DNA from: Candidatus Woesebacteria bacterium
GTDB taxonomy: Bacteria; Patescibacteriota; Microgenomatia; UBA1400; UBA1396
Length of the DNA stretch: 48,622 nt
NCBI GenBank assembly: GCA_963749595.1
Contig: CAVVNJ010000001.1
Coordinates: forward strand, 67,376-115,997
Direction: 5' to 3'
A program made the position numbers and the translations under genes. Below the pieces are notes generated by a model. That model was not told the origin of the DNA. It saw only the letters and a program-made list of their open reading frames with translations, and did no database searches. Below are positions 4,735-20,732 of the stretch, piece by piece; position 1 is the first letter of the stretch; each line of letters opens with the position of its first letter.

Positions 4735-5041
<307 letters not shown>

Positions 5042-5044
<3 letters not shown>

Positions 5045-6049
5045 AGCGACTTGGGACTCTAGCTCACTGGTATCAACATAGGTTCCGCCGCCACAACTTT
5101 TGCAGAAATATAAAGAGTATTCTTTATCTGAGTTTTGGTGCTTCTCTCCCCAAAAACGCGAACCGCAATCGCTGCAAAATAGGAAACCGCGTAGAAGAAA
5201 GTTGTGCTTGCGACTGCGCGATCCACCTTGGTTGTGGGCCAAAATAACCCTCTGCACCTGTGCAAATAGATCTTGAGAAATTAGCGGTTTGTGTTTACCG
5301 GCATATTCAACACTTTTCCAACGAAAGCGACCGACGTAGAAAGGATTACCCAGCGTCCGCTCGATCAAGCTCTGATGTATCTTGCCACCAGTTGGGGATT
5401 TAATCCCTTTTTCATTAAGAAAATCTGCCAGATCTGCCATCGTGTAACGTCCAGAGGCATACATTTTGAATATCTCTCGTACTAGGCTGCCAATTTCCGG
5501 CTGAACGAAAATTATCCGTCGGTCCAGAGTAGAGAAGGGCTCAGGATTATCGCCATTACGATATCCTAGCGGGGGAGTTCCGCCGGGAAACCAGCCGATC
5601 TGAGCCTTTTGCTCCATAACTTTACTAGTTTTACGTCCGGTAATTTGCGATTGAAAAGCGTTGGTCGCTGCTAACAAAGTATCAACAAGATTTCCCTCTG
5701 GGCTATCGTCAATAATCGGCTGACTGACGGAAATTACTTGCGTACCATTTTTGCGCAGAATCGCTTTGATTTGCAGGTGATCGATCGTATTCCTAGCCAG
5801 GCGGTCGGTATCTTGAACCAGCACAGCGTCAATTTTCGGCTCTTTTGCCTGGACTTTGACCAATAGATCTTGTAAAGCGGGGCGGTTCATATTGGTAGCT
5901 GATTTGCCCTCATCGACAAAGGTTGAAACAATCTCAATACCATTATCCTGGGCGTACTTTTGGCAGATCCGCAATTGCGATTCGATACTCTGGCCTTCCT
6001 TGGCCTGTTCCTCCGTCGATACCCGCGCATAGATCAAGCCCGCCCTCAC
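5042..6049 (-). pseudogene. Large serine recombinase A, C-terminally truncated after the Zn ribbon (335 aa)
   Basis: IYARVSTEEQ catalytic Ser motif, DTDRLARN, recombinase domain (GNPFYVGRF), Zn ribbon CSDC...CKSC, then an abrupt stop. The TAG is the reverse complement of tRNA bases CTA 5042-5044. GGAGGT RBS before the GTG start. Confidence 0.85.
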
Positions 6050-6252
6050 TCTGCACCTCCTAGCCCGTGTCTGAGCGCGTCCAAGACTTGCTCGCGAGAA
6101 TATTGACGGTCCCCACGTGTACCAATAGGGGTAGCTTTGAATATACCGGCCCTATCCCAGCGTCGAAGGGTGGTCGTGGTAACCCCCAAAAGCCTCGCTA
6201 CTTGGCCAATACGCAACTTCTCTGGCATGATAGTTGTCTTTTTTCCTGGCAT
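6046..6252 (-). CDS. MerR-type / excisionase-like HTH DNA-binding protein
   Basis: LRIGQVARLLGVTTTTLRRWDRAG...GDRQYS; stop overlaps the recombinase GTG start (GTGA). Confidence 0.8.
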   Translation of the reverse strand: MPGKKTTIMPEKLRIGQVARLLGVTTTTLRRWDRAGIFKATPIGTRGDRQYSREQVLDALRHGLGGAE

Positions 6253-6296
6253 GATGTATAAGTTATACCACATGAGATGAAAATGGAAATAGCAAA

Positions 6297-7001
6297 ATGA
6301 AAATCAAATATTTTTCTGTACAAGCTGAGCCACGCAAGGGTCTACCGGATAAATTTACTTGGATCGAGGAAGAGGCTAGCGCTGTCGATGTTCATCCAGA
6401 AGCCCGCGCGTTTCTATTCGCCCTATCCAGGAATCAGGAATTTGAGAAGGATATTATCCAGTGGCGAGCAGAAGCGGGAATTCCAGAAAGTGGCTTTAAT
6501 TTTAATTCAGGGGACAGGTCAGGATGTAACTGGAGCACCATTGTTGCCGCCTCGAGATCCCTTGATGCGAAATATAGTTTCCTTCAATATCTATCATCTA
6601 GACATATCCTGCTATATAACGGGGTGCTGCTACCCGTCCAACCAATCGAACTCGAAGCTGATTACGACCATCAAACAGGCCTGATGGATGGCACAGAAAA
6701 AGGGGAAGTTCGGATCATCATTAGGTCACAAATAACGAAGCATGCCCTAGTAACATTTATTGAGAAAAACTGGGAAGTCATAGAAAAAAAACTTGCAATT
6801 GCTTCGCGATTAGACCGATCTACTGTCACAGATAGGGATATGCAAATCGTCACTTTAAGGGAAGATAGCGATCTAACTTTTAATCAAATTCGGAAACAGC
6901 TTGCTGATTCAGGCGAAGTTTCTTCAGCAATGACAGAGGACGCAATCAAACAGGCCTACTACCGTACAAAAGAAAAGATTACGCAAATAAATCAAGCGTA
7001 A
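6297..7001 (+). CDS. Hypothetical protein with a probable C-terminal HTH
   Basis: 234-aa ORF ending in RDMQIVTLRE..LTFNQIRKQL...TEDAIKQAYYR, resembling a sigma region 4-like HTH. Confidence 0.55.
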   Translation: MKIKYFSVQAEPRKGLPDKFTWIEEEASAVDVHPEARAFLFALSRNQEFEKDIIQWRAEAGIPESGFNFNSGDRSGCNWSTIVAASRSLDAKYSFLQYLSSRHILLYNGVLLPVQPIELEADYDHQTGLMDGTEKGEVRIIIRSQITKHALVTFIEKNWEVIEKKLAIASRLDRSTVTDRDMQIVTLREDSDLTFNQIRKQLADSGEVSSAMTEDAIKQAYYRTKEKITQINQA

Positions 7002-7109
7002 CAATCCGATAGGGCATCACCCGTAACCCCATCCCCTTCTCACTTACAAGTTATCCACTTCATCGTTAAATCAGGCTAAAAACTGTCATACGTATTTTGT
7101 CAATTAATC

Positions 7110-7568
7110 ATGAATTCTATTTCTGAAGAGTCAGTAAAGAATTATAGAAAGTTTTTGGATCCTCAAAGTAATGTTGGACGAAATTTCCATTTCGAAATAT
7201 TAGTATTAGAAATTTTTCTTACCACACGTGCGTTTGAGATAGCCATAACTGATAACCGAGATGAACTATTAGACAAGATACACAGCATTATCTATCATCA
7301 GGCATGTAAAACTCCCGAAGAAATCGACACTTTTATCGAATTACTTAATGAAAGATATATACAATACCGAGAAACTCTTGACAAGGCATTTGAGGTGTCC
7401 GATCGAGAGGGTTTTGCTCTGTTATCCCTTGGAAATAGATTCGCCGGAAATATTGTCGGAGAGGATAAAGCACGCGGTGGATTATCCAGCTTTGTCGCTG
7501 CTAGATCCGGCCAACACCTTAAACTTTATCTTGATCTTCTTAATAGGAAAGACCAGATTCCAGGGTAA
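7110..7568 (+). CDS. Hypothetical protein
   Basis: 152-aa ORF filling the gap between neighbours; no motif recognised. Confidence 0.55.
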   Translation: MNSISEESVKNYRKFLDPQSNVGRNFHFEILVLEIFLTTRAFEIAITDNRDELLDKIHSIIYHQACKTPEEIDTFIELLNERYIQYRETLDKAFEVSDREGFALLSLGNRFAGNIVGEDKARGGLSSFVAARSGQHLKLYLDLLNRKDQIPG

Positions 7569-7619
7569 ACGCGCTACTCATGAAGTAGTCCGTCAGCCAT
7601 TGTATAATTCGAGTACTAA

Positions 7620-7635
7620 CCTCCCGGGGGAGCCA
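7620..7635 (+). other. Displaced tRNA-Asn 3' end (att junction)
   Basis: CCTCCCGGGGGAGCCA: CGGGGGA pairs with the tRNA 5' strand TCCCCTG (one G.U), followed by discriminator G and CCA. Differs from the expected T-stem at position 64 (C instead of A). Confidence 0.85.
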
Positions 7636-7639
7636 GATG

Positions 7640-7667
7640 GGACGCAGAGGCAACAAAGCGTCCTTTT
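7640..7667 (+). terminator. Candidate intrinsic terminator right after the tRNA 3' fragment
   Basis: GGACGC (7640-7645) / GCGTCC (7658-7663) stem followed by TTTT. Confidence 0.5.
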
Positions 7668-9361
7668 GTGTTGAACTGTCGGGCTTTTTTGTAAGTTCGA
7701 ATTTTCCATTTTCTAAGTCATCGATTTTTTCCACTTTCGGACCATTTGTTTCTGTTACTGCCTCGGAGAGGATTTTAAAGGTCTTTGAGTAGGTGTAGCT
7801 GAGCTTTCCCTCGTCTACTGTTAATGACCCGAAGACAAACCTTATAAGTGCTCGTTGTTCGTCCACCATGTCCTTGGCTTTGGCGGCTAGATAAATTTCT
7901 TTGGCTCTCTGGGAGAGTTCATAAATGCTGACACCAAGATTCAAGAAGCCGGTGCTGGCGTTGGAGTGTTTCTTGATTGACTCGGTTACTTCATCTTTTT
8001 CGTCTGAATACTGCTTAAATTTTCGGCTATAAAACTCTGGAGTGATCTTTTCATCGAGCTTATCATCGTACAATTTGTCCATTCGCTTCTGAATCGCCTC
8101 GTAGCGGGTGTGAAGCTCGCCGACAGTGTCGTTGTGGTATTGAAGTTCGTCCTGGTGGCTTTCCTTGAGTGCCTTCTTGAGCCAGTCGGTAATCCGGCTG
8201 TTTTTGATTCTCAGGTTCTCAAAACCGCTGATTAGTTGGTCCTCCACCTCGTCTTCTTTGACCCAGGTTGTCTGGGGACATTCGTGATAATGGTTACAGT
8301 GGCCGTAAATGTATTGGGCTTTGGCAATTTCGAAAGTAATTGAATTGTGGCAACTGGCGCATTTAATCAGACCTCTGAAAGAGGAAGTTGTGCTTACGGT
8401 ACTTGGGAGTGGTCCTACTGGTGAGCATATTCTGGATTTTATTGAATAGTTCAACGCTGATGAGCGGTTCTTGTTTGCCGTCGCAGACTTCTTTGTTCCA
8501 CCTAATTTTACCGATATAAAAGGGATCGCGCAGCAGGGAATGGATCCGACTGTGTGGCAGTCTGTGTCCTAGTTGGGATCTCATGCCTTCATCGTACATT
8601 TTCTTGACCAGCCTCTTGGTTGAATAATTGCCAGTGGCATAGAGTTCAAACATTTTCCTCACTAACGGGGCGGTGTCCTCATTGACGACGTGGATTTTGT
8701 GGCCGGTTTCGCCAATCGTTTTATAGCCATTGGGTGGTTTGGTAGGGATCCAGCCTTGGGCGATCTTCTCTTTCTGGCCTTTCTTGACGTTCTCGGATAA
8801 AAGTCGGACGTAATACTCGGCTGTGGCTACTTTCACCCGCCACATAAACCATTCGTGGGAGCGAGAGGTGTTGTGGAGGATACAGCCTTCCTTGGCCAGG
8901 TGGACCTGATGGGCTTCGTTCTCGGTAATCCAAAGGTCAATCATGGGGACATCGGCGAAGTTGCGGGTTAGGCGGTCCGTGGTTTCGACAATAATGGTGG
9001 GGATATCGTGCTTGCGGACGTAGGCTACCATCTCAATAAAGACTTTTCTCTGGGTTTTACCGGCGGCTGATTCGGAAATGGCAAAGACCTTGGCTACTTC
9101 CAGTCCTTGTTTCTCGGCATAATCGCGGAGGAACTTCTCTTGGGCTGGTAATGAATAGCCGGTGTCTTCTTGTTCTTTACTGCTTACTCGGCAGAAAATG
9201 GCAGTTTTCATAGGTTTTGATCTGGCAACACAACATAAAGGAATAACCCAGGAACATCAAGCCATTTGTCCTGTACTCGTTTGTTGTGGACTATAAGCGA
9301 GTGGGCAATAAATGAGAGGGGTTGGATGACTAGGCTCATTTCAAGGTAAAAAGGTCCCAAA

Positions 9362-9893
9362 TCCACACAAGTTTCACCCAAGAGTTGCCCAACCTTATAG
9401 CCTTCAAACTGACGAAACCTTAACGAAGTGTTGACGCAATTTTCTGTACCGATTTCATCCGTGATTTTGTCCTGATGTTATTCAGGCTAAAACCCTCATT
9501 TTCTGGGTAATCATTGGGTAACTGTTGGGAAACCTTTTTAAGGCTAAATCGCTTGAATTCTGGTGTAGGGTTGGTGTAGCTCCGGTGTAGCCTTTGCTGG
9601 TCGATTTCTGGAGAAGTATTGGAGAAGAGTTGGAGAAGTCTTTGGACGGAATTCTGGCATATCTTTGGCATACCCTTGGCATATACTGTTCTGCCAAGTT
9701 TTGCCACTTTTGCCAAGTCTACCCTGCCAAAATCCATCCAACTTTCATCCAAGTTCTGTCCAACCTTATTAGCCTTAAATGCTGACCAACTTCTGACCAA
9801 GTATTGACCAATTCCCATCCACACTTCATCCACCTTTTGTCCCACCCTTATAAGGCTTTTTCCTAGCCAAGTTTTAGCCAATTTCCGGCCAAC
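9362..9893. repeat. Array of about ten short triplet repeats with 11-bp period (TGG/CCA cores) in two orientations
   Basis: Examples: TGGTGTAG-type at 9561/9572/9583; TGGAGAAG 9609/9620/9631; TGGCATA 9655/9666/9677; TGACCAA 9783/9794/9805; GCCAA 9866/9877/9888. Confidence 0.85.
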
Positions 9894-9914
9894 CTTGTTT
9901 TTCATAGTTTGCAT
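9420..9914 (-). CDS. Hypothetical ORF spanning the repeat array (may be non-coding)
   Basis: 164-aa ORF. Its G-x-x-L-x-x-x-W pattern is simply the 11-bp DNA repeat read in three successive frames. Confidence 0.3.
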   Translation of the reverse strand: MQTMKNKVGRKLAKTWLGKSLIRVGQKVDEVWMGIGQYLVRSWSAFKANKVGQNLDESWMDFGRVDLAKVAKLGRTVYAKGMPKICQNSVQRLLQLFSNTSPEIDQQRLHRSYTNPTPEFKRFSLKKVSQQLPNDYPENEGFSLNNIRTKSRMKSVQKIASTLR

Positions 9915-10041
9915 TTCGTTTTGTTAATTATTTTTCGTTAAAAACTCCTTCTAGTTAGTTTGTCGTCCTCTCGTTTCTCGCCGACGTTATGTGACTTTAG
10001 GAATTTAGCCTTGATTTCCTTTAAATCTTCTCGTTTGTTGT

Positions 10042-10440
10042 TCACGACGAGCGAGTTGTTGCCTCGTGGATGGCAAAAATTGTGACGATTTGGGGGTTAA
10101 GGGTGTAGAGGTTATTGGCAAAGACACTGGTGCCTTTTTTGTTCTTTTGCTTTTTTTTGCGGATTTCGATTAAAGGTTCGCCATTATGTCTGGCTTTGGC
10201 AAGATTAGCTGATTCTTCTGCTGACACTGGCAATACTATTAAGGCCCAAGATTTGTTTGAGCTTGCTCAGGGAGGGGTAGCATTCGCCTTTGTCGTTGAT
10301 AAATACCGCCAGGGCGGTGAAGGTGTGCCATTGTTCAGCAGTTAACATCAGGTAAGAAGCCCACCATGAAAGATGGGGTTTCGCCAGAATTGCAGATACA
10401 AATTATCCTTTGGTTTTTCTTGTTTCATTGACATATTCAT
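10042..10440 (-). pseudogene. HTH (HTH_36 / phage replication protein-like) gene with two frameshifts
   Basis: Manual translation: MNMSMKQEKPKDNLYLQFWRNPIFHGGLLT | MLTAEQWHTFTALAVFINDKGECYPSLSKLKQILGLNSIASVSRRI | ANLAKARHNGEPLIEIRK...NNLYTLN. Breaks at about 10350 and 10208. Confidence 0.6.
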
Positions 10441-10459
10441 TTATTGTTTTGGTCTTGGG

Positions 10460-10615
10460 CTATGAGCTACCGCTCTTGGCCTCGATCTTCATGGCCGTTT
10501 CTGCAAAGCCAATAAGGACCAGGGCAATGTCCAAGACTTCCTCAAGCTTTAAATCAACGTTGTAGTCCTCTTTGAGAATCTGTCTGAGCTCGAGTAGTAA
10601 CTTTTGGCTCACCAT
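10460..10615 (-). CDS. Small 51-aa hypothetical protein of the integrative-element core
   Basis: MVSQKLLLELRQILKEDYNVDLKLEEVLDIALVLIGFAETAMKIEAKSGSS; below the ORF-track size cutoff; overlaps the upstream gene's stop. Confidence 0.6.
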   Translation of the reverse strand: MVSQKLLLELRQILKEDYNVDLKLEEVLDIALVLIGFAETAMKIEAKSGSS

Positions 10616-10867
10616 AGGCTTCTTTCGGCATAAAGCCGCGATTTAATGTCACGTAACTGGTTAAAGAATGTCTGGGGTGAGATTTTGAGTTCATTGCGAA
10701 AGTAGCCTTCAACAAGGTCTTCTAGTTCTGGGGACCGCAAGAAAACAAAGACGGCTTTGCGTGGATTGGATCGGTCAATATCCTGAATGGGAAACTGGAG
10801 GGAAATGGTAGTGGCTAGGGCTAAGTCACTGGTTACGTAAGTATCGGAAGTATGTTTGCTGATTCAT
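10609..10867 (-). pseudogene. DUF5659-like protein; ATG at 10867 is out of frame by one base
   Basis: Manual translation: YVTSDLALATTISLQFPIQDIDRSNPRKAVFVFLRSPELEDLVEGYFRNELKISPQTFFNQLRDIKSRLY. In-frame TGA immediately upstream of ISKH. Confidence 0.6.
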
Positions 10868-10995
10868 AGTAATTTATTTGAGAACTACGATCAGTTTAGG
10901 GAAGGTGCGCTGTCCATCTCAATAAACTTTGTGGTTGTTTATGTTTACTTTTGGAGACAAGGAGTAATAATTGTCTGGTAAGAAGTAGCCAATTT

Positions 10996-11004
10996 TGGTA
11001 AACT
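10996..11004 (+). promoter_or_regulatory. Extended -10 promoter candidate for the hydrolase-Ldh-AKR-YecM operon
   Basis: TG-G-TAAACT upstream of the first gene. Confidence 0.45.
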
Positions 11005-11046
11005 ATGACTAAGAATCGACGTTTTTAAATGGACATCAAATTAAAT

Positions 11047-11586
11047 ATGAACAAAAAATCAAAAGCATTGTTTCTTCAAAGTTGGTATTCAAAGGTTACC
11101 GATAATTGGTATCCATGGTTAAAGAATGAACTTGAGAAAAAAGGTTACGCCACTTATTTTCCCGATATCCCAGAAATGCGTAAAGATGTTCCTGATATGG
11201 GTAAAATACTCGAATATATTGAATCCCTGAAAGTAATTGACAAAGATACGATTATTATCGGTCACAGCCTTGGTAATTTGTTAGCAATGAGATTAGCTGA
11301 AAAATTTGAGTATAAGCAGATGATTTTAGTTTCTGCATGGGATTACGATGATTTGTGTGAAGGACACGTATTGTTTTGGAAAACAAAGATAAATCACACA
11401 AGAATTAAAGAGCATGTCAAAAACATTACCGTAATTCACTCTGACAATGACCCGTACTACACTCAGATTTCCGCTGAAGACACAAGTAAAAGGCTAAATG
11501 CAAAATTAATTATAATTAAGGGTGGTGGGCATTTCGGAACAAAAGAAGGGACGAAGGAAATGCCCGAGATATTAAAACTACTTTAA
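11047..11586 (+). CDS. RBBP9/YdeN-family alpha/beta serine hydrolase
   Basis: NWYPWLKNEL, GHSLG nucleophile, HSDNDPY, GGHF. Start could be 11029. Confidence 0.85.
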   Translation: MNKKSKALFLQSWYSKVTDNWYPWLKNELEKKGYATYFPDIPEMRKDVPDMGKILEYIESLKVIDKDTIIIGHSLGNLLAMRLAEKFEYKQMILVSAWDYDDLCEGHVLFWKTKINHTRIKEHVKNITVIHSDNDPYYTQISAEDTSKRLNAKLIIIKGGGHFGTKEGTKEMPEILKLL

Positions 11587-11594
11587 ATATATCT

Positions 11595-12584
11595 ATGAAA
11601 ATCAAAGTTTCGGAAGCCATCCAAATATCTCAGAAGTTTCTTGAAAAGCTTGGTTTATCACCTGAGGAATCAACTTTAATTACTGAGAATGTTGTTGACG
11701 CTGAACTAGCGGGTAGAAAAACTCACGGTTTTGTCCGTTTAATATCTTTCAAAAAACAGTCAGACGAGAAACGATTAAATATTGACGAACTAAAGCTCGA
11801 TATTACTGATGAATCTCCAGTTCATATTCATGTAGACGGTCACGGCAAACTCGGGTACGGTATAATTTATAAATCACTTGATCTGGCATTTGAGAAAATA
11901 AAGACCTCAAGAATGGTGTCTGTTGGCATTAAGGACTTGGGAGTGACCGGTTACATCGGAGGTTATGCAAGAAAGGCTACAGAGAAAGACTTAATTTTCA
12001 TTGGTTTTAATAACTCACCAGGTGGTTTAGTTCCTTATGGTTCAAAGAAGGAATTGTGGGGTACTAACCCGATGACCATCGGCGTTCCTACAGAAGACAC
12101 TCCAGTTATTTTAGATATGGCTTCAACCCTGACGACTTGGGGAGAGCTTATGGTGGCCAAGAACGAAGGAAGAGAAATTAAGCCTGGTGTTGCTATTGAT
12201 GCTGAAGGTAAACCGACAACTGATCCTGTTAAAGCAATGTCTGGAGGGTTATTACCTTTTGCTGGTTATAAAGGATCCGGGCTTGGTCTTATTGTTGAAC
12301 TACTCGCCGGTGCATTGACTGGAGCCAGAGTTGGTTATGCTGTTCCTGGTGGTTGGGGTTCGTTCTACATTCTCATTGATCCAACACTTTTCCGACCACT
12401 TACCGATTTTAAGAAAGACATAAAAGCTGCAATAACAGAATTAAAAAATGCTCCTAAGATGGATGGTGTTGACGAGATTTATTTTCCGGGCGAGCAATCT
12501 CATAAACTAAGACAAGAACAACTTTCAGAAGAAATGGTTGAAATTAGCGATAAGATTTTAGAACAAGTAAGGAGTCAATTATGA
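11595..12584 (+). CDS. Ldh_2-family (malate/L-lactate/sulfolactate dehydrogenase-like) oxidoreductase
   Basis: AELAGRKTHGFVRL, GTNPMTIG.P, ILDMAS, LLPFAGYKGSGLGLIVELLAG, IYFPGE. Confidence 0.88.
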   Translation: MKIKVSEAIQISQKFLEKLGLSPEESTLITENVVDAELAGRKTHGFVRLISFKKQSDEKRLNIDELKLDITDESPVHIHVDGHGKLGYGIIYKSLDLAFEKIKTSRMVSVGIKDLGVTGYIGGYARKATEKDLIFIGFNNSPGGLVPYGSKKELWGTNPMTIGVPTEDTPVILDMASTLTTWGELMVAKNEGREIKPGVAIDAEGKPTTDPVKAMSGGLLPFAGYKGSGLGLIVELLAGALTGARVGYAVPGGWGSFYILIDPTLFRPLTDFKKDIKAAITELKNAPKMDGVDEIYFPGEQSHKLRQEQLSEEMVEISDKILEQVRSQL

Positions 12585-13507
12585 TAACCAAAAATGATTT
12601 ATTTCCAATCGGTATAGGAACTTGGGGTGTTGGTGGCTTTGCAGAAAAAGACCAAACTCTAAATAAGAGCAAACAAGTTGATGCTATCGCCTACATGTTT
12701 CAAAAAGGCATGAATTATGTCGAAGCTAACCTCTGGTATTCTCAAGGTTACTCTGCCGAGATTCTTGCTGAAGCTTTCAAAAAATCAGGTAAAAAGCGCG
12801 ATGAGATATTTATCGTCCAAGCAGTTTATCTGAAGGACAATAAACTCCAAGATACTGAAGCGGAAATTGATCGTTTGTTGAAGCTGTTTGGAACTGATCA
12901 CATCGACACTCTGCAGTATACCCAAAGTGCTTTCCTGGATTATGAATTTGATGAGGTTTGTGGCATGGCCGATAAGGTTATAACTGCTGGTAAATCTCGA
13001 TATACAAGTATTACCAATGAAAACTTAGAGCTACTGAAGAAGTATCATCAAAGATTTGGTGACAAATTATTCTCCCATGAAGTGTGTTTCAACTTTGAAG
13101 TTCGTGCTAATGAGGCAGAAGGAACCATTAAGTACGCCCAGGATAATGGAATCGTGACTGCCATTTATCAGCCTTTAAGAAGGAACCGAACCGCAAACAG
13201 GAATTGGCCAATTTTAGTCGAGCTTTCCAAAAAGTACGGAATAACTCAAAACCAAGTGATCCTCAGTTGGATTATATCTAAAGGCTTATTACCTCTTACC
13301 AAGTCTGAAAATAAAGCACATATTGATGAGCATCTGGCAGCAATTGGACACAAGTTGGATCCAAATGATATCCAAATGTTAAACGACTTTGTCCCACCTG
13401 GATACAAACCGTTACCAATCGATTGGGATAAAACAGGACAAGGGTTCCGCATTGACCAGGTTAGTAACGTCTTTGATGATGAATACGATAAGCAAATTAA
13501 AGGTTAA
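12581..13507 (+). CDS. Aldo/keto reductase-fold protein with non-canonical catalytic residues
   Basis: IGIGTWG, GTDHID, GKSR, YQPL, TQNQVILSW, PKS-like TKSENKAHIDE; ATGA overlap with the upstream gene. Confidence 0.8.
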   Translation: MITKNDLFPIGIGTWGVGGFAEKDQTLNKSKQVDAIAYMFQKGMNYVEANLWYSQGYSAEILAEAFKKSGKKRDEIFIVQAVYLKDNKLQDTEAEIDRLLKLFGTDHIDTLQYTQSAFLDYEFDEVCGMADKVITAGKSRYTSITNENLELLKKYHQRFGDKLFSHEVCFNFEVRANEAEGTIKYAQDNGIVTAIYQPLRRNRTANRNWPILVELSKKYGITQNQVILSWIISKGLLPLTKSENKAHIDEHLAAIGHKLDPNDIQMLNDFVPPGYKPLPIDWDKTGQGFRIDQVSNVFDDEYDKQIKG

Positions 13508-13511
13508 TAAT

Positions 13512-13997
13512 ATGGTTTTAGATTCTTACGATAAATTTATTACTACTATCCTGAATAAAATTCAGTCTTTTGAGATTGATGTCGAAAAGTTGGATATGGA
13601 TCATATTGGCTACCAAGCATCATCTGACGAAGATTACGATAACCTGAAGAAAGAGTTTGATGGTTTAGGAAAGCTTGTGTCTGAAGAGATTGTTGGCGGA
13701 CGAAGAGTTGGTATTTATGAATTAAGCCAACCATTAAAGTTTAATCAATACACCAATGATGCGATTGAACTAGTAGCTCCTAAACAAGGGCAACAGTGTC
13801 CTTCTGCCCTTGAGCACGTTGAATTTGTGTTAACTGAAAGTTTTGAGTCCTTCATGGCTAAATATCCGAATGTACCTTGGGATACTACTGCGATAAGCCA
13901 ACCCGGATTCCCAATGATAAAACTTAAACTTGGTGATTATATCCAAGCAAAATTTCACCTACAGCCTGTATTGGATATCGTGGCGAACAAAACTTAA
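13512..13997 (+). CDS. YecM-like VOC-family protein
   Basis: MDHIGYQAS, EEIVGGRRVGIYEL..PL, IELVAPK, LEHVEFV, AKFH; start set at ATG 13512. Confidence 0.8.
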   Translation: MVLDSYDKFITTILNKIQSFEIDVEKLDMDHIGYQASSDEDYDNLKKEFDGLGKLVSEEIVGGRRVGIYELSQPLKFNQYTNDAIELVAPKQGQQCPSALEHVEFVLTESFESFMAKYPNVPWDTTAISQPGFPMIKLKLGDYIQAKFHLQPVLDIVANKT

Positions 13998-14221
13998 AAG
14001 GGAAGCAGTTCGGAAGAGTCTACTTTCAACGCCTTGGCGATTTTGTAGAGAGTCCTGATGGTTGGGTTTCTCTCGCCTCGTTCTACCATGCCCACATATG
14101 TCCTGTGCAATGACAATCTTGCCGCCAATTCTTCCTGGCTAATACCTTGAGATTTACGGACCTTTTGCATCTTCTGACCGAATTTTTCTAGAACGAATTT
14201 GTGAGTTATTGCTTTTCCCAT
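13994..14221 (-). CDS. XRE / C-protein-like HTH transcriptional regulator
   Basis: GISQEELAARLSLHRTYVGMVERGERNPTIRTLYKIAKAL. Confidence 0.92.
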   Translation of the reverse strand: MGKAITHKFVLEKFGQKMQKVRKSQGISQEELAARLSLHRTYVGMVERGERNPTIRTLYKIAKALKVDSSELLPF

Positions 14222-14378
14222 GTGTTCAAATCGTAGAGACTCCCTGTATTCTTTTCGACAGACTCCTTGTCTCTTTTGTGCTAAACTTCCTCTAGAAAGC
14301 CTATTGATTTGACTTTAGCTCTTGAAGGAAGTTAACATCTCGACACGTTATCAGTTAGCTCTGTAGGAGGATAAAAAT

Positions 14379-15245
14379 ATGACAATGAAAATGACTCAAA
14401 ACAAACCACTGGTTATTGCCTTCGCTCTCGTGGTGTTACTTGGCTCTGCCTTCTGGCTTATTCGTCCCAGGATTCAAGCAGTAAAGGTTCAACAGGCTCA
14501 GGACCAGAAGCTCCAACAAATAAAAGAACTCACTCAATCTGCCGATACTGATCCTAAATATCGGGAACATAATTCCCAGGCCAGCCGTGAGATGTCTGAT
14601 AAGCTCTGTTCTTTGACTGCCCGCTCTCCGGAAGAGAGGGAGAAAGCAGTGGCAGCTGTCCGTGATTTCTTGGAAATGCCGACTATTGCGGTGAAATATG
14701 AATGCAACGACGCCTTCTATAACCTGGAAGAGGACCGACTTATTCCTGCCAAGAGTGAAACTTACTCGGTTGACTCAACCTATTTCGTTGTTAATTCTGT
14801 AACAAACCATATCATGCAAGTAGACGAGACTCCTGGGACTTGGGGATATAAGGCTGATGGTTCTCGTTGGTTTAGTGATCAAAAGCAATACGACTACAGT
14901 GGCAAATATAGCCAAGCAGAGATTGAACAGTTGGCTCGTAACTTTATCACCAAGCATTCAGTGGCTTTAGGAAATATCGATCTCTCTAAATTCACACTGG
15001 AGACCGGCAAGAAGGATGGTGGAAACGGTAGGGTAAATTATTTCCTCATTTGGAAGGGAGAAGCCAGAACTGTCCAATTAGATCCACCAACCGAAACTTG
15101 TAGTGAGGACCTGGACAAGAACGCTCCTGGCTTATATCGCAACGGCAATGGTGTTCCTTGTATCAAGGTCTACGAATCCAAAGAACAGCCTAGCCTGAGC
15201 TGTTGCCTTTACCAATGGTGGCCAACTCATCAACTTCTCCAATGA
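14379..15245 (+). CDS. Secreted or membrane-anchored hypothetical protein; probable frameshift near the C-terminus
   Basis: AGGAGG RBS and N-terminal hydrophobic segment. After about 15199 the +1 frame reads AVAFTNGGQLINFSNELEGPLARARMR to a stop at 15282, which looks like the natural tail. Confidence 0.65.
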   Translation: MTMKMTQNKPLVIAFALVVLLGSAFWLIRPRIQAVKVQQAQDQKLQQIKELTQSADTDPKYREHNSQASREMSDKLCSLTARSPEEREKAVAAVRDFLEMPTIAVKYECNDAFYNLEEDRLIPAKSETYSVDSTYFVVNSVTNHIMQVDETPGTWGYKADGSRWFSDQKQYDYSGKYSQAEIEQLARNFITKHSVALGNIDLSKFTLETGKKDGGNGRVNYFLIWKGEARTVQLDPPTETCSEDLDKNAPGLYRNGNGVPCIKVYESKEQPSLSCCLYQWWPTHQLLQ

Positions 15246-15601
15246 GCTCGAAGGACCACTTGCCAGGGCTCGCATGCGCTAAGGTTTCTATGAAAACAAT
15301 CAAACGTTTTATTCTCCGGTATTTTGTGGTGCTTATTGAACTCCAGGTGAAGCTACTCAAGACATTGGCCCACACCGGCTCACAACGTCCCCAACGAGCC
15401 GTTTGAAGCTAAATAACGGTGAACTATGCCACTCCAGGCACGAATAGGCCACACAAGCCAACACGCGGTGCCAACGCGTATTTTGGATGGCTACTCTAAT
15501 TGCCTATCGCTATATCTGGAAAATTATTATGTGGTACAATTTTTAATATACCTATTGATTTATGTTCCATAAAATAATATTCTGAATATATTCAAGATAA
15601 A

Positions 15602-16708
15602 ATGAAGACAAACAAAATGGCACAAAAAAAGGACATACAAGATATTCTGTACCAGTTAATCAAATTAACTGCTGAAAATAAATCCGAAGATTTACAGATG
15701 TATCTCAAACGGTATCAGAAAATCTTGGGGGAAAGTTACCCTGAGTTGATAGAGAAACTTCAAACATTCAAGAAGAGTAGTTCTGGCAACTTCAGAAATA
15801 CAAGGATGGCTAACATTCCAGTAGACTTAGATACTAGGCTTGAGCTGGTTCGGATGTTTCAAAAGCCATCTGTAGACTTTGAGCCAATTTGGGAAGACTC
15901 CATTCAAAAGATCCTTAATCAGGTACTTATTGAGAGAAGCCAAAAAAGAAAACTAAGAGAACATGGATTACAAGCAACTAAGTCAATTATATTTACCGGT
16001 AAACCTGGGGTCGGTAAGTCGTTGGCAGCAAAATGGGTTGCTTCAAAATTAAACATGCCCCTTTTGGTACTGGATCTGTCTGCTGTCATGAGTAGTTTTT
16101 TGGGACGCACTGGATCAAATATTAGAAATGTACTTGATTACGCAAAAGGAATGGAGTGCGTTTTGCTTTTAGACGAGATTGACGCAATTGCCAAAAAAAG
16201 AGATGACAATGCTGATGTTGGAGAGCTTAAAAGATTAGTTACAGTTATCCTTCAAGAAATAGATGAGTGGCCCGAACATAGCTTATTGATTGCTGCAACA
16301 AATCACGCCTCATTGTTGGATCCAGCAGTATGGAGAAGATTTGATTTAGAGATCGAATTCCCAATGCCACAAACAGAACAAGTTATTAAGGCTGTAGATC
16401 TGTATCTAGGAAAAGAAAAAATTGAATCTAAAGAGGTTAAAAATTGTTTGATATCACTTTTAAACTCTTTGTCTTTCAGCGACATTGAAAGAGCGGTGTT
16501 ATCGATTAGAAGACAAGCTGTTATAAAAAAGATTGATATAGACAACGCGGTTGTCGAATATTTTGCTCAAGGTATTGATAAACTAGACAAAGAATCGAAG
16601 TTAAAAGTTGCTAAATTAATGGTTAGCCTAGGTAGTTCTCAGCGAAGGGCAAGCGAAATTGTCGGCATCAGTAGAACTACACTAAGCAAGAAAATGAAGG
16701 GAGAATAA
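15602..16708 (+). CDS. ietA: AAA+ ATPase IetA
   Basis: Walker A GKPGVGKS, Walker B LLLDEIDAI, DVGELKRLV, AATNH..LLDPAVWRRFD, C-terminal HTH; directly upstream of an S8 protease. Confidence 0.85.
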   Translation: MKTNKMAQKKDIQDILYQLIKLTAENKSEDLQMYLKRYQKILGESYPELIEKLQTFKKSSSGNFRNTRMANIPVDLDTRLELVRMFQKPSVDFEPIWEDSIQKILNQVLIERSQKRKLREHGLQATKSIIFTGKPGVGKSLAAKWVASKLNMPLLVLDLSAVMSSFLGRTGSNIRNVLDYAKGMECVLLLDEIDAIAKKRDDNADVGELKRLVTVILQEIDEWPEHSLLIAATNHASLLDPAVWRRFDLEIEFPMPQTEQVIKAVDLYLGKEKIESKEVKNCLISLLNSLSFSDIERAVLSIRRQAVIKKIDIDNAVVEYFAQGIDKLDKESKLKVAKLMVSLGSSQRRASEIVGISRTTLSKKMKGE

Positions 16709-16710
16709 AT

Positions 16711-18926
16711 ATGTCAAAAAACTTTCTTCTCGGCTTTGGTGAACGGTTAACAGAAAGAATGGATCCGCCAAAGACAGCTCCGGATAAAGTGTTGCCTTAC
16801 TCTTTTGAAGAGTCAGTAAAAAGGTTAGGAAGTCAGATTGACCAGACTTTAGAATCTGTTCGCTCCCTGCCTGATTTGGCTTGCCCTCAAAATCAAACTG
16901 TTGTTTCTTTTGTCCTACATCCAGAATTCACTGCAAAATCGTATTATCCAGAGTCTTTGTTCCGCTCCTGGAACTTAGAACAGGTTGGTAGCCGAATGAC
17001 AAAAATCAAACCTGAAAAGTGGACCAAGAAAAAGAGAAACAGCCGAGGTTGTTACTACAGAAATTTTTGTATCAGGTGAGAAAACAAAACTAGAAGCACT
17101 ACCTGGTCTTTTAAGCAAAACTCTTTCGACCTCTGTTGAAGGAGCTGAGCTGTCAAAGATTGAGATGATTAAGCCTTTGAGTGTGTCAGATAAGCTCATG
17201 CCTATACTTACAAAAAATGACAGATTGATGTTTGAGGCCGTACTGCATGCATCGGCTGACGAATCCTATCTTGTAGATGGGTTTAAGAAATACTTGGACT
17301 CACTCAAAGACGGTTCAATTATCAGCGATCTCATTTATTCAAAAGGTTTATGTTTTCTCTCCATCGAAGCACAAAAGGCAAAGGCTCACGACATTGCCGA
17401 ATTTTCTTTTTTAAGAGTGCTTAGGGAGATGCCAAAACTTCGTGGTTTTGAGCCCGCCTTACGGTCAACAGGTATGAATTTTGCAGTTAGTTTACCAGAT
17501 GTAAAACCAGTCGATCCTAACCTAAAAGTAGCGATTTTTGATGGAGGTTTTCCAGATAATAGTCCATTATCGAAATGGATTGATAAGAAAGAAATTGGGA
17601 AACTGGATAAACCAATGGCCGAAGGTTTAAATCATGGACATTGGGTATCATCTGCTTTTTTATTCGGCCCATTACAAGATGGAGTCCAACCACCTCAACC
17701 TTACGCATATGCAGACCTTTATCGTGTTTTTGACACCAACGACAATGGTGATGCAAACTTAATTAAAGTCCTTAAAAGAATAAGGGATATTCTTACTTCA
17801 ACTAACTACAATTTTGTTAATTTAAGCTGTGGACCAGATTTGCCTGTTGAAGATACTGAAGTTCATGCATGGACCTCAGTTCTTGATGAAATATTCTCGA
17901 ATGGATCAATTTTGGCAACATTGGCTGCTGGAAATAAAGGTCATTTAGATAGAGCTTCGGGGAATGCCCGTATTCAACCACCATCCGACTGTGTTAATGG
18001 ACTATGTGTGGGTGCCGCTGACAGTCAAGGAGATGCATGGCAAAGAGCAAACTATAGTTGCGTTGGTCCTGGTAGACTCCCTGGGTACATAAAACCTGAT
18101 TTACTTGGGTTTGGTGGTTCAACAAAAGAGTTTTTCTGGGTTGTCGACAACAATAATCCTGGTTTTTCTGTTCCTGTTCAAGGAACCAGTTTTGCCGCGC
18201 CGTTTGTATTAAGGACTGCGGCTGGGATTCGTTCCATATTTGGAAGCAACTTAAGCCCACTGGCAATAAAAACATTGCTCATTCATTCTAGTGAGAAGGA
18301 AAATCATGACTTGTTAGAAGTTGGTTGGGGTAAGTTAGGTTCAGATATTGATCTGATAACCTCATGCGAAGATTCCTGCATTAAGGTTGTTTATCAGGGT
18401 AAGCTAAATCCTGGAGAATGGCTGAAGGTTCCAGTTCCATTACCAAACACTCAAATAAAGGGTAAGGTCTTGGTTAAAGCCACGATGTGCTATGCCACAC
18501 CCACAGACCCACAGGACTCGGCAAACTACACCCAGAGTGGTTTAGAGATAGTTTTTAGACCAAACGAGGACAAGAAGAAGGATCCTCATCAGGAATACCC
18601 TGATTCTAAATCGTTTTTCTTCTTCCTCAAGACTTTACGAAAATTTGGGAACTGATGAAAAGAGATTTGACTCCCACAGGTGGGAGTCAACGATGTCTTC
18701 ATCCAGGTCTATGCTTGGGAGGAGCCTTAAGAATCCTGAATTTAATGTTCACTATATTGCCCGAGATGGTGGTAATAAAACAAAGGACGCTCAAGAAATC
18801 CCTTACGCTCTAGTGGTTGAGGTAAGTGCTCCACGAGAGGTTAATTTATATAACCAGGTATTTAGCCGGTTTAGAACGGTCTTAGAGATTCTCAAACCGA
18901 CCATTGAGATCCAGGTACAAACATAA
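16711..18926 (+). pseudogene. ietS: S8 serine peptidase IetS, split into three ORFs by two +1 frameshifts (about 17030 and 18615)
   Basis: N-terminal FLLGFGERLT; triad AIFDGG / NHGHWVSS / QGTSFAAP and AAGN oxyanion motif in 17165-18655; C-terminal IPYALVVEV..P...LYNQV. The skipped frames give natural continuations ETAEVVTTEIFVSG and SSSRLYENLGTDE. Confidence 0.85.
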
Positions 18927-18931
18927 CCAAT

Positions 18932-19627
18932 ATGAAGAGTACCAACGCATCACAATTTACTTCGAGTTATAAGGATTGGAACAAAGCCCAAGAGCAACAA
19001 GTTGCTGATTCTATTGATAAAGAGGTAAGTAGCTATATTCCTGATGACGATTTCTATACGGAGGCATTTAAAGCCTATGTATCTGAAAATATATCAAACC
19101 TATGGACCGAATTTGAAAATGGTTTAATGTATTGCGAATCTCCCATTGAAAAGATGATGATGGCTGCATTGGCAATAGTCGGTGGTCGTCAGGTATTTGT
19201 TGGTTTTAAAGTAAAGAAAATGTACTTTGGTAGAGATGTAGAGAGTTCCGCAGAACATTTATTAATTGCGCCCCAGGCGGAATTAGGTAGTTATAGAGTA
19301 GATTTTTTGCTGACGATGACAATTATTGCTCCAAAATTTGAATTGATTGATGGTGAATCGAAGGCGACAGGAGACAATAAGGTAATAAAACAAATGATTT
19401 TAGAATGTGATGGACATGATTATCATGAGCGCACAAAGGAACAGGCAAAGAATGACAGGACTAGGGATCGGACTCTCCAACAATTAGGTTATTTAGTGTT
19501 TCGATATACTGGCTCCGAGATCTGGGAAGACGTTTTTAAATGTGCACAAGATGCCGTAAATACTTTATATAAGCAAACTAACGATGAAGCTTGGGGTTTT
19601 AAAGACGAGAAGACTCAAACTGACTAG
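18932..19627 (+). CDS. DUF559 / Vsr-like endonuclease domain protein
   Basis: ESPIE, YRVDF, LECDGHDYHERTKEQAKNDRTRDRTLQQLGYLVFRYTGSEIW. Confidence 0.8.
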   Translation: MKSTNASQFTSSYKDWNKAQEQQVADSIDKEVSSYIPDDDFYTEAFKAYVSENISNLWTEFENGLMYCESPIEKMMMAALAIVGGRQVFVGFKVKKMYFGRDVESSAEHLLIAPQAELGSYRVDFLLTMTIIAPKFELIDGESKATGDNKVIKQMILECDGHDYHERTKEQAKNDRTRDRTLQQLGYLVFRYTGSEIWEDVFKCAQDAVNTLYKQTNDEAWGFKDEKTQTD

Positions 19628-19635
19628 CAAAACCC

Positions 19636-20127
19636 CTAAGGCTTTCTAAAATTGAGTAAGGCTTGGTCAATCTCTGGAGTAGTTGTCCAAGGCTTCAGGG
19701 TCTTGGGAATGTGGAGAAAGGTGTATTGAGAGCGAAGCTCACCTTGGTTGATTAGTTTCATTATTTTCCAGCTAATCTGGTTGCAATAGGAATTGCCGAT
19801 GGCTTTAGCGTATTTCATGGCCTCTGTTGGTTTGAGAAACGGCTTTATTTCTACCTCGGTGTATTGATCGCCATCGACCAAGTCGTTGCGGAATTGATTG
19901 GAACAGATCGTCTCGATGCGAATTTTATCCTGGTCAACACCGGAGTATGATCCCAAACCGAGGACATACGGTGGCTGATCATGGAGAAGCATATCTAGAT
20001 ACTTGTCTAGGTTGTTTGGAAAAACCAAGTAACAACAATCGATATTTTTCAATCGGTATAACAATCGGCCGGTACTGCTCAGGGCAAAACCATATACCTG
20101 CTTGCTTAATGTTGGCAATTCGTCCAT
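19636..20127 (-). CDS. Pyroglutamyl-peptidase I (C15)-like protein
   Basis: PPYVLGLG, IRIE (Glu), GNSYCN (Cys), FLHIP (His). Confidence 0.55.
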   Translation of the reverse strand: MDELPTLSKQVYGFALSSTGRLLYRLKNIDCCYLVFPNNLDKYLDMLLHDQPPYVLGLGSYSGVDQDKIRIETICSNQFRNDLVDGDQYTEVEIKPFLKPTEAMKYAKAIGNSYCNQISWKIMKLINQGELRSQYTFLHIPKTLKPWTTTPEIDQALLNFRKP

Positions 20128-20172
20128 GACGTTATAGTACCAAGTCTTGACAAGATTTTGAAATCAAAGTAT

Positions 20173-20732
20173 CTACGCTTGCAGAAAACGGTGGATTTCC
20201 TTCGCTGTGTACTCTGGGTATTCGAGCTCTGTGGTCCAGTCAGTTGTCCGAAATTGTGACCATTTCTCGAGCCAAGCTTGACGATCAGAGAAATCCAGAA
20301 GCATATCAAAGGGTTTTTGTGCTTCGTATAGCACCTTTTTACCTTCTATTCGTAGGTTCGATAGTACAAGCTTGATAAGTTGCCGTCTTTCTTCGACTTC
20401 TGAACTCCTAAACAGCTCATACGCTCGTTGGGTAAGGTCTACCAGATATGTAGCGGTTACAAAGTAGCTGTCTTCAGCTTCTTTGAGTAAGGCTAAGCGG
20501 GTGTCCACATCGGCTTCTTGTTCCTGGAACGATTGAAAGAATTTGTCATATTGATCGTCAGTAATTCGTCAGTAATACGCCCCTTCAGTTTGTCCAAATA
20601 AAGATTGTCTTTCATTGTGGTGAGTGCTTTTTGTTTCTTGGTAAGTTCTTCGTATTGTTGGTTGTGAAAATCCATCTTGGCCTCATGGGTTTGAGTCAAT
20701 CCTTCGAGAATTTGTTTCAGTACGTCATCTGG
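20173..20732 (-). pseudogene. Large serine recombinase C, C-terminal remnant, frameshifted by an 11-bp tandem duplication
   Basis: PDDVLKQILEGL..., LYLDKLKGRIT, ERRQLIKLVLSNL, QKPFDML, WLEKWSQFRT. TCGTCAGTAAT duplicated at 20555-20576. Confidence 0.8.

What the first reader, a model, noticed from the sequence alone, without database searches (positions are those of the whole stretch)
5042..7635. The tRNA T-arm supplies the recombinase stop codon, so integrase C-termini would switch with recombination state
Seen: tRNA bases 62-64 (CTA) read TAG on the minus strand and terminate recombinase A. Recombinase B reads TGG CTC CCC CGG (WLPR) through the tRNA 3' end in the same register. Joined to the native tRNA it would stop at WLPR*, but at the present junction the codon is GAG and it reads on to WLPREVSTRIIQWLTD... 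Remnant C ends WLEKWSQFRTTDWTTE..., giving a shared W-L-x6-R-x3-W-x-T-[DE] tail. Inference: the att core lies inside the integrase gene, and a ~27-aa tail is present in the attP/attR-type state and removed on integration. This could be a built-in directionality or stability switch.
Basis: partly seen in the sequence, partly recalled or inferred. Interest (0 to 1): 0.75.

Follow-up and report, generated by a model that had tools for sequence, protein, structure and literature searches.

The report
Serine integrase gene crossing its attachment site
Three broken copies of a small mobile element sit in one tRNA-Asn gene; their serine integrase gene runs across its own recombination site, so intact relatives end in a conserved ~30-residue tail when excised and in a few tRNA-derived residues when integrated.

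Summary
CTA at 5042-5044 is tRNA-Asn positions 62-64 and is read as the TAG that ends recombinase A. Recombinase B reads WLPR through the tRNA 3' end (7624-7635), and a same-genus intact tRNA would give WLPR-stop. Remnant C ends in a related tail.

In about 170 relatives, large serine recombinase (LSR) genes end antisense inside a tRNA 3' end. Where no tRNA adjoins, they carry a 15-57-residue non-tRNA tail. In two single integrated elements that tail lies in frame at the far junction, so the crossover is inside the ORF, at the Leu codon of W-L. Distal tail codons are under protein-level purifying selection.

Three corrections:
- Recombinase A is a deletion remnant. Homologues have 500-530 residues against its 335, so its T-arm stop is an accident, and the tRNA is left unrepaired.
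- B is frameshifted and C is a stump, so nothing switches here now.
- The shared W-L-x6-R reflects DNA. WL is GAGCCA, and R is a T-loop mimic placed 5 bp further out, the canonical attP/attB offset.

A directionality switch remains untested. I found no published description. Mx8 IntP/IntX is the closest analogue.

The parts
4735..4768 (+). tRNA-Asn(GUU) 5' exon, up to the second anticodon base
   Evidence: Identical to the intact G001 tRNA.
4769..5015 (+). Group I intron in the anticodon loop
   Evidence: Rfam RF00028, 76.4 bits, E 9e-18. Removing it restores the tRNA of G001.
5016..5044 (+). tRNA 3' exon up to canonical A64. T-loop TTCGAGT, then CCTA. CTA at 5042-5044 is read as TAG on the minus strand.
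5042..6049 (-). Recombinase A: LSR truncated at residue 335, after the second CxxC of the zinc ribbon. It lacks the coiled coil and C-terminal region.
   Evidence: Pfam Resolvase, Recombinase and Zn_ribbon_recom. About 1000 homologues, the listed full-length ones 480-552 residues. Alignment to P0004 and P0002 ends at residues 335 and 334 of A. The missing part is nowhere else in the genome.
6046..6273 (-). MerR/HTH_17 small protein, overlapping the start of recombinase A. It is a conserved partner of this LSR family.
   Evidence: Pfam. Same arrangement in L024, L027 and L167; L026 has an HTH_17 gene upstream of its tRNA-proximal LSR.
6297..7568 (+). Two cargo ORFs of element A (234 and 152 aa) with no family match
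7540..7629 (-). P arm of element A. It holds a T-loop mimic TTCGAGT (7608-7614) 5 bp further from the core than in the tRNA. It encodes the 27-residue tail now fused to B (EVSTRIIQWLTDYFMSSAFTLESGLSY, 7543-7623; stop at 7540-7542).
7624..7635 (+). tRNA-Asn 3' end CCGGGGGAGCCA. It is read on the minus strand as WLPR of B. The inferred crossover is G71-A72, at 7630-7631.
7540..9211 (-). Recombinase B: LSR with one frameshift near 8372-8377. Its natural end would be WLPR-stop at 7621-7623.
   Evidence: 70-77% identical to the intact G013 LSR, which ends ...PIWLPG-stop inside tRNA-Asn.
9212..20172 (.). Cargo of element B: serine hydrolase, Ldh_2, aldo-keto reductase, YecM, XRE HTH, AAA ATPase, S8 subtilase, DUF559-like nuclease
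   Evidence: Pfam. This stretch is absent between the same flanks in G001.
20173..20268 (-). P arm of element B. It encodes the conserved tail EKWSQFRTTDWTTELEYPEYTAKEIHRFLQA-stop, now fused to remnant C.
20269..20274 (+). GAGCCA, the tRNA-end remnant at the B/C junction. It is read as the WL of C.
20173..20699 (-). Remnant C: frameshifted C-terminal stump of a third LSR
   Evidence: 66% identical to residues 414-493 of the tRNA-proximal LSR of L026.

Best explanation
**What is there**
Window 5045 to about 20700 is a decayed tandem stack of three small integrative elements in one tRNA-Asn gene. Each was inserted by its own large serine recombinase (LSR). The family is widespread in Patescibacteria.

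**Shown**
- In this family attP lies inside the 3' end of the LSR gene.
- The last conserved codons (..V-R-V-R-x-x-W-L) are also the P' half-site plus a copy of the tRNA 3' end.
- After integration the ORF runs on into the antisense of the tRNA. It stops after 1-12 arbitrary residues, often at the TAG formed by T-stem CUA.
- In the excised circle, or when a newer element lands beside it, the ORF runs into the P arm instead and gains a 25-35-residue tail.
- The first 8-9 tail residues are fixed by att DNA. They contain a T-loop-like TCGAAC placed 5 bp further out than in the tRNA, which is the canonical attP/attB offset of the zinc-ribbon motif.
- The distal ~20 residues are under protein-level purifying selection.

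**Inferred**
- The crossover is at the Leu codon, tRNA G71-A72.
- The tail-bearing isoform, made only from the circle, is the integration-proficient enzyme.
- Clipping the tail on integration biases the element toward staying in, as with Mx8 IntP/IntX.

**State of this window**
- C is a stump.
- B is frameshifted and carries A's tail.
- A has lost its last ~170-190 codons together with tRNA positions 65-76 in one deletion. Its T-arm stop is therefore an accident, and the tRNA is unrepaired.
For: - Native tRNA and both junctions.
- A is truncated.
- B compared with an intact relative that ends WLPG-stop at tRNA-Asn.
- Family C-termini fall into tRNA-antisense and tailed classes.
- LSR 3' ends overlap tRNA-Asn, -His, -Ser or -Glu by 11-70 nt in about 30 loci.
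- Tandem arrays have a tailed distal LSR.
- At the far junctions of G150 and G179, 11- and 14-nt repeats of the tRNA end are followed in frame by a tail. The G150 tail is 83.5% identical in DNA to the tail of P0004.
- TCGAAC starts +12 nt after the Leu codon in 16/16 tRNA-side arms, and +17 (one at +16) in 10/13 P arms.
- The mirror motif GTTCGA ends 15 nt before the Leu codon in 15/20 LSR 3' ends.
- The 5-bp shift is the published LI integrase model (PMC3783163).
- Distal tails have pS 0.56-0.99 against pN 0.14-0.50, Fisher p from 6e-5 to 0.02.
Against: - No circular (attP) molecule was observed. The short contigs that carry tailed LSRs have no terminal repeats.
- AlphaFold gives the tail as helices at only pLDDT 36-56.
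- Tail conservation could partly reflect recent shared ancestry or exchange of P arms.
- Nothing shows that the tail changes activity.
- All three local recombinases are disabled.
- The exact crossover dinucleotide is inferred from repeat overlap and symmetry, not observed.
Confidence: 0.72

Rival explanations
1. The tail swap is a neutral by-product. attP was packed into the end of the integrase gene to restore the tRNA in a tiny element. The ORF simply reads on to the next stop, and the peptide has no role.
For: - Integrated-state endings are arbitrary in length and sequence.
- The proximal tail motif is explained by att DNA.
- The tail is modelled with low confidence.
Against: - Distal tail codons lie beyond a 25-28-bp half-site, yet they show saturated synonymous change with conserved residues, for example R as CGT versus AGG and L as CTG versus TTA.
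- Tails stay open for 15-57 codons in 13/13 cases that lack a tRNA.
- At least three conserved tail classes recur on divergent LSR bodies.
Confidence: 0.2
2. Recombinase A is an intact enzyme whose natural stop is the T-arm TAG. The 27 residues now on B are its excised-state tail, toggling at this locus.
For: - The stop at 5042-5044 is real and in the family's usual register.
- The arm at 7540-7629 is a genuine P arm.
Against: - A ends at residue 335 of a 500-530-residue family. It lacks the coiled coil that LSRs need for synapsis.
- The tRNA is not restored at A's junction.
- The tRNA match ends 6-7 nt short of the inferred core.
Confidence: 0.04
3. Assembly artefact or chance. The junctions come from mis-joined repeats in a metagenome-assembled genome, and the tail similarity is coincidence.
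For: The genome is an 83%-complete 12-contig assembly, and reads could not be checked.
Against: - The junctions share only 3-6 nt, too little to mis-assemble.
- The same architecture recurs in dozens of independent genomes and samples.
Confidence: 0.03

Closest known systems
Phage-type large serine integrases (Listeria A118/LI, phiC31, Bxb1, SPbeta SprA)
   Same: - Resolvase, Recombinase and zinc-ribbon domains, with a coiled-coil hairpin.
- Short att sites.
- A zinc-ribbon-domain DNA motif 5 bp closer to the centre in attB than in attP (PMC3783163). That offset is reproduced here.
   Different: - The targets are tRNA genes. The Islander paper of 2014 (PMC4383910) says serine integrases were not known to target them.
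- attP lies inside the enzyme's own ORF, so the C-terminus depends on the recombination state.
- The carriers are 3-15-kb elements with no phage or conjugation genes.
- A MerR/HTH_17 gene overlaps the LSR start.
Myxococcus phage Mx8 IntP/IntX
   Same: - attP lies within the int coding sequence.
- Integration creates a new 3' end of int and changes the enzyme's properties (PMC6070905, citing Tojo 1996 and Magrini 1999).
- From my own recollection, attB lies in tRNA-Asp genes.
   Different: - Mx8 Int is a tyrosine recombinase of a 49-kb phage.
- In Mx8 a large C-terminal segment is replaced.
- Here the enzyme is a serine recombinase and only the last ~30 residues are swapped.
SSV-type ('suicidal') integrases of archaeal viruses and plasmids
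   Same: The recombination site lies inside the integrase ORF, so integration disrupts the gene (PMC7253208 abstract, PMC4383910).
   Different: - These are tyrosine recombinases.
- Their gene is split into two pseudogene halves.
- Here the catalytic and DNA-binding body stays intact and only a tail is exchanged.
tDNA-targeting genomic islands (Islander type)
   Same: The element carries a copy of the tRNA 3' end that restores the gene, and tandem arrays build up at one tRNA.
   Different: - Those islands use tyrosine integrases.
- Here the restoring fragment is only about 6-16 nt and is also coding sequence.
- At element A in this window the restoration has been lost.

Membership tests
Large serine recombinase (serine integrase) | N-terminal resolvase catalytic domain with the Ser nucleophile motif | tested here: met
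   PF00239 in A (E 3e-33) and B (E 6e-20). YxRVS is invariant in the family alignment.
Large serine recombinase (serine integrase) | Recombinase domain plus zinc ribbon with an inserted coiled coil | tested here: inconclusive
   - PF07508 and PF13408 are found in A and B.
- The family model shows a helical hairpin at 343-439.
- A itself ends before the coiled coil.
- So the feature is met for the family and for B, and not met for A.
Large serine recombinase (serine integrase) | attP and attB half-sites share a zinc-ribbon-domain motif that is shifted 5 bp toward the centre in attB | tested here: met
   - TCGAAC starts at +12 in 16/16 tRNA arms.
- It starts at +17 (one at +16) in 10/13 P arms.
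- The mirror motif is found in the P' arm in 15/20 cases.
- Reference model: PMC3783163.
Large serine recombinase (serine integrase) | 2-bp staggered crossover that is identical in both partners | not testable with these tools
   Inferred as G71-A72. The basis is the overlap of the flanking repeats (G150 positions 67-76, G179 61-74, window B 71-76) and the site symmetry.
Large serine recombinase (serine integrase) | A separate recombination directionality factor is needed for excision | not tested
   The conserved MerR/HTH_17 gene upstream of the LSR is a candidate only.
Mx8 IntP/IntX-type self-altering integrase | attP inside the int ORF, with the C-terminus replaced on integration into a tRNA gene | tested here: met
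Mx8 IntP/IntX-type self-altering integrase | Tyrosine recombinase catalytic fold | tested here: not met
   Only serine recombinase domains are present. This is an analogue, not a member.
SSV-type suicidal integrase | Integration splits the gene into two non-functional parts | tested here: not met
   Only residues after W-L are exchanged. The 500-residue body stays contiguous in integrated relatives.
tDNA island that restores its target | A full tRNA is regenerated at the int-proximal junction, and a displaced 3' fragment marks the far junction | tested here: inconclusive
   - Met in relatives (aragorn finds whole tRNAs; displaced fragments in G150 and G179).
- Met formerly for B.
- Not met at element A: the tRNA stops at A64, and no other tRNA-Asn is found in the assembly.

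The most novel reading that the evidence does not exclude
The tail swap is a built-in state sensor for a serine integrase. Only the excised circle can make the tailed isoform, and that isoform is the one competent for, or restricted to, attP x attB integration. The integrated copy makes a clipped enzyme. That enzyme is either locked or needs the MerR-like partner to excise. Directionality would then be partly written into the DNA rearrangement itself rather than supplied only by a separate factor. This would sit in a large clade of serine integrases that target tRNA genes, which I did not find described.
Probability: 0.3. Interest if true: 0.85.

Novelty: new variant of a known kind. Interest (0 to 1): 0.62.

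Why it matters
- Serine integrases are major genome-engineering tools. Their one-way behaviour is explained by coiled-coil geometry plus a separate directionality factor.
- A natural clade in which the enzyme's own C-terminus is rewritten by each recombination event offers a directly testable new layer of control.
- The clade would also supply compact integrases (about 500 residues, about 50-bp sites) aimed at conserved tRNA ends.
- It contradicts the earlier generalisation that only tyrosine integrases target tRNA genes.
- It helps explain how minimal 3-15-kb islands, here carrying defence-like and metabolic cargo, pile up at one tRNA in the reduced genomes of Patescibacteria.
- The local copy also shows the cost: a deletion at the junction has destroyed the only detected tRNA-Asn gene.

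Tried and rejected
- **Genome-contig scan with the family alignment.** The patterns were too general. The best hits were 41% identical or less, and only about a dozen loci were useful. I used order-level genome search plus region fetches instead.
- **Viral-contig scan.** No close relatives, at most 31% identity. I saw no sign that these are phages.
- **Circular contigs.** Four short contigs carrying tailed LSRs (P0004, three contigs; P0029, one) have no terminal repeats.
- **P0063, a 330-residue relative.** It lies at a contig end, so it says nothing about a short class.
- **AlphaFold of a tailed relative (P0067).** The body is confident, but the tail is helical at only pLDDT 36-56, so docking cannot be judged.
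- **Crossover within CCT of the T-stem (tRNA 61-63).** I first read A's two junctions this way. I rejected it because position 64 is C at 7623. The repeats in G150, G179 and the B/C junction overlap only at positions 71-74.
- **A's missing C-terminus at the other end of the element or elsewhere.** Not found.
- **A spare inverted attP copy, reported for relatives in earlier notes.** None in this window.
- **Another tRNA-Asn gene.** None in the 83%-complete assembly.
Full report
**1. What is in the window**

Positions 4735-5044 hold a tRNA-Asn(GUU) gene. A 247-nt group I intron interrupts it between anticodon bases 35 and 36 (4769-5015; Rfam RF00028, 76 bits). ARAGORN does not call it.

I joined the exons and added the 12 nt at 7624-7635. 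The resulting 75-nt tRNA is 100% identical to an intact, intron-less tRNA-Asn in a genome of the same genus (G001). That tRNA reads ...GGTTCGAGTCCTACCGGGGGAGCCA.

The window follows the tRNA only up to canonical A64 (5044). CCGGGGGAGCCA occurs once, 2.58 kb downstream.

Synteny with G001 resumes at about 22630. The stretch from 5045 to about 21 kb is therefore an insertion.

**2.

All of it checks out.
- CTA at 5042-5044 is tRNA positions 62-64. Its complement TAG ends ORF 5042-6049(-).
- Recombinase B reads TGG CTC CCC CGG (WLPR) through 7624-7635. It then reads GAG where the native tRNA would give TAG, followed by 27 more residues.
- Remnant C ends AWLEKWSQFRTTDWTTELEYPEYTAKEIHRFLQA.

**3. 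What the three recombinases are**

All three have large serine recombinase (LSR) domains.

*Recombinase A* has 335 residues. About 1000 homologues match it at E <= 0.001. In the top 120, all but four short or partial entries have 497-552 residues and align from residue 1. A's alignment to P0004 and P0002 stops at residues 335 and 334 of A, just after the second CxxC of the zinc ribbon. No trace of the missing ~170-190 residues exists in the genome. A is a deletion remnant that lacks the coiled coil.

*Recombinase B* is 70-77% identical to an intact LSR in G013. That relative ends ...LLPQRPIWLPG-stop inside its tRNA-Asn. B has one frameshift near 8372-8377.

*Remnant C* matches residues 414-493 of the tRNA-proximal LSR of locus L026.

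**4. The family pattern**

Among 120 database homologues, the C-termini fall into two kinds.
- Endings such as ...VRVRxxWLP[RGD]-stop or WLPGLDSNQ... These are antisense translations of a tRNA acceptor stem and T-arm.
- Non-tRNA tails, which form recurring classes:
  - VHELIRNLHxFIASPDVIGAK...
  - WNDFRTxDW..EYPE...
  - LVDAFRNxExEFGFSLQNIQTVFETF...

I fetched about 55 loci from the same order and from metagenomes. They gave 51 distinct LSR 3' ends.
- 36 have an antisense T-loop at the ORF end. ARAGORN finds a convergent tRNA-Asn, -His, -Ser or -Glu overlapping the LSR by 11-70 nt.
- 13 have no adjoining tRNA and carry 15-57 extra residues.
- The other two are L127 and L036: aragorn places L127 on a tRNA-His, and L036 is unclear.

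In tandem arrays the distal LSR is tailed. In L026 the proximal one ends in the tRNA; L024 shows two tailed LSRs with the tRNA out of view. Remnant C's tail belongs to the EYPE class, with homologues in L125, L121, L024 and P0029.

**5. Direct test of "the core lies inside the ORF"**

*G150* carries a single element.
- Its LSR ends NGWLPG-stop in tRNA-Asn.
- An 11-nt repeat of the tRNA end, ATGGCTCCCCG, lies 12.7 kb upstream of the LSR.
- It is followed in frame by VHELIRNLHHFIASPDVIGAKLVNFSTT-stop. No start codon precedes it.
- This is the tail fused to protein P0004. The two are 83.5% identical in DNA, while the LSR bodies barely align at the DNA level.

*G179* shows the same layout, with a 14-nt repeat and the tail VAKRTKDW....

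The flanking repeats (G150 positions 67-76, G179 61-74, window B/C 71-76) overlap only at tRNA positions 71-74. This places the crossover in the Leu codon of W-L.

**6. Site architecture**

Measured from that Leu codon:
- The T-loop TCGAAC starts at +12 in 16 of 16 tRNA-side arms.
- A TCGAAC-like motif starts at +17 (one at +16) in 10 of 13 tail-encoding arms.
- A mirror GTTCGA ends 15 nt before the Leu codon in 15 of 20 LSR genes. There it is read as the conserved V-R-V.

This is the attP/attB design established for LI integrase. In that model the zinc-ribbon-domain motif sits 5 bp nearer the centre in attB (PMC3783163). Symmetry points to G71-A72 as the core.

Three consequences follow for the window.
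- The arm at 7608-7629 is TTCGAGT + ACTAA + CCTCCCGGGG. That is a T-arm mimic with a 5-nt spacer and one mismatch, which explains C at 7623 where the tRNA has A64.
The proximal part of the shared motif is therefore DNA-driven.
- A's left junction ends the tRNA match 6-7 nt short of the core. It is a deletion endpoint, not a crossover.

**7. Is the tail a real peptide?**

I tested only codons beyond the half-site, from codon 13 onward.

| Pair | pS | pN | Fisher p |
|---|---|---|---|
| Window C vs L125 | 0.89 | 0.27 | 6.5e-5 |
| Window C vs L024 | 0.83 | 0.45 | 0.024 |
| L125 vs L024 | 0.99 | 0.50 | 8e-4 |
| G150 attR vs P0004 | 0.56 | 0.14 | 0.003 |

Synonymous multi-base changes occur, such as CGT/AGG for Arg and CTG/TTA for Leu. 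This argues for selection on the protein in the LSR frame.

AlphaFold models the tail of P0067 as two helices at only pLDDT 36-56. Its fold and its contacts with the rest of the protein are unknown.

**8. Reading of the locus**

C integrated first, then B. B's P arm gave C the EYPE tail. A integrated last, and its P arm gave B its present tail.

Later, one deletion of about 0.5 kb removed tRNA positions 65-76, A's restoring fragment and A's last third. That deletion happens to keep the family's register, so the T-stem TAG closes the stump.

No other tRNA-Asn gene is detectable in the 83%-complete assembly.

**9. Mechanism and its status**

The anatomy is shown: attP lies in the ORF, the C-terminus depends on the recombination state, the tail is selected, and the half-site geometry is that of a canonical LSR.

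It is inference that the tail is required for integration or restricts the enzyme to it, and that clipping it stabilises the integrated state. The closest analogue is Mx8 IntP/IntX (PMC6070905).

**10. Novelty**

The Islander paper states that serine integrases are not known to target tRNA genes. It names Mx8 and SSV, both tyrosine recombinases, as the integrases that extend across attP (PMC4383910).

My searches found no description of tRNA-targeting LSRs in the candidate phyla radiation, or of an LSR whose ORF spans attP. Absence from this library is not proof.

Earlier notes of this scan report the same design in other genomes. I reached it independently here and treat those notes as leads only.

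As an exemplar this window is poor, because all three copies are dead. It did lead to a clean family-level result.

Noticed in passing
window 4769-5015: Group I intron between anticodon bases 35 and 36 of tRNA-Asn(GUU). The same-genus genome G001 lacks it. An intron at the same place appears in the tRNA-Asn next to the LSR in six other genomes of the order (G004, G015, G223, G055, G198, G069), which is why ARAGORN misses those tRNAs.
   Followed up: partly
window 4735-5044 and 7624-7635: tRNA-Asn is physically split and not restored. Positions 65-76 are missing at the junction with A. No other tRNA-Asn is found by ARAGORN or BLAST in the 12-contig, 83%-complete assembly.
   Followed up: partly
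window 15602-19627: Cargo of element B includes an AAA ATPase, a small ORF, an S8 subtilase and a DUF559/MTES_1575-like nuclease. This could be a defence module. Metabolic genes lie alongside (Ldh_2, aldo-keto reductase, YecM, serine hydrolase).
   Followed up: partly
family loci, e.g. L110 about 2005-2030; window 7636-7660: The conserved C-terminal V-R-V-R..W-L of these recombinases is dual-coded. The same bases are the P' half-site (GGTTCGAGT, a sense copy of the tRNA T-loop) and the restoring tRNA 3' end.
   Followed up: yes
window 9356-9398 and 9727-9769: A 43-nt direct repeat (79% identity) lies in a region of short phased repeats upstream of recombinase B, inside ORF 9420-9914, which has no family match.
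   Followed up: no
window 5929-5959 versus 13130-13160: A 31-nt inverted repeat (87% complementary) between the N-terminal coding region of recombinase A and the aldo-keto reductase gene of element B. It could be chance or a recombination scar.
   Followed up: no
L024 (ENA ERZ24794676, contig of 11.7 kb) and L026: Tandem arrays of MerR-LSR mini-elements of 4-6 kb, carrying cargo such as APH-like kinase, MFS transporter, peptide deformylase and rRNA adenine dimethylase. Stacking at tRNA-Asn is common.
   Followed up: partly
L167 2411-2501 versus L148 7278-7368: The P arm and tail are far more conserved in DNA (83.5%) than the recombinase genes of the same two elements. This suggests strong constraint on the arm or its exchange between elements.
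   Followed up: no
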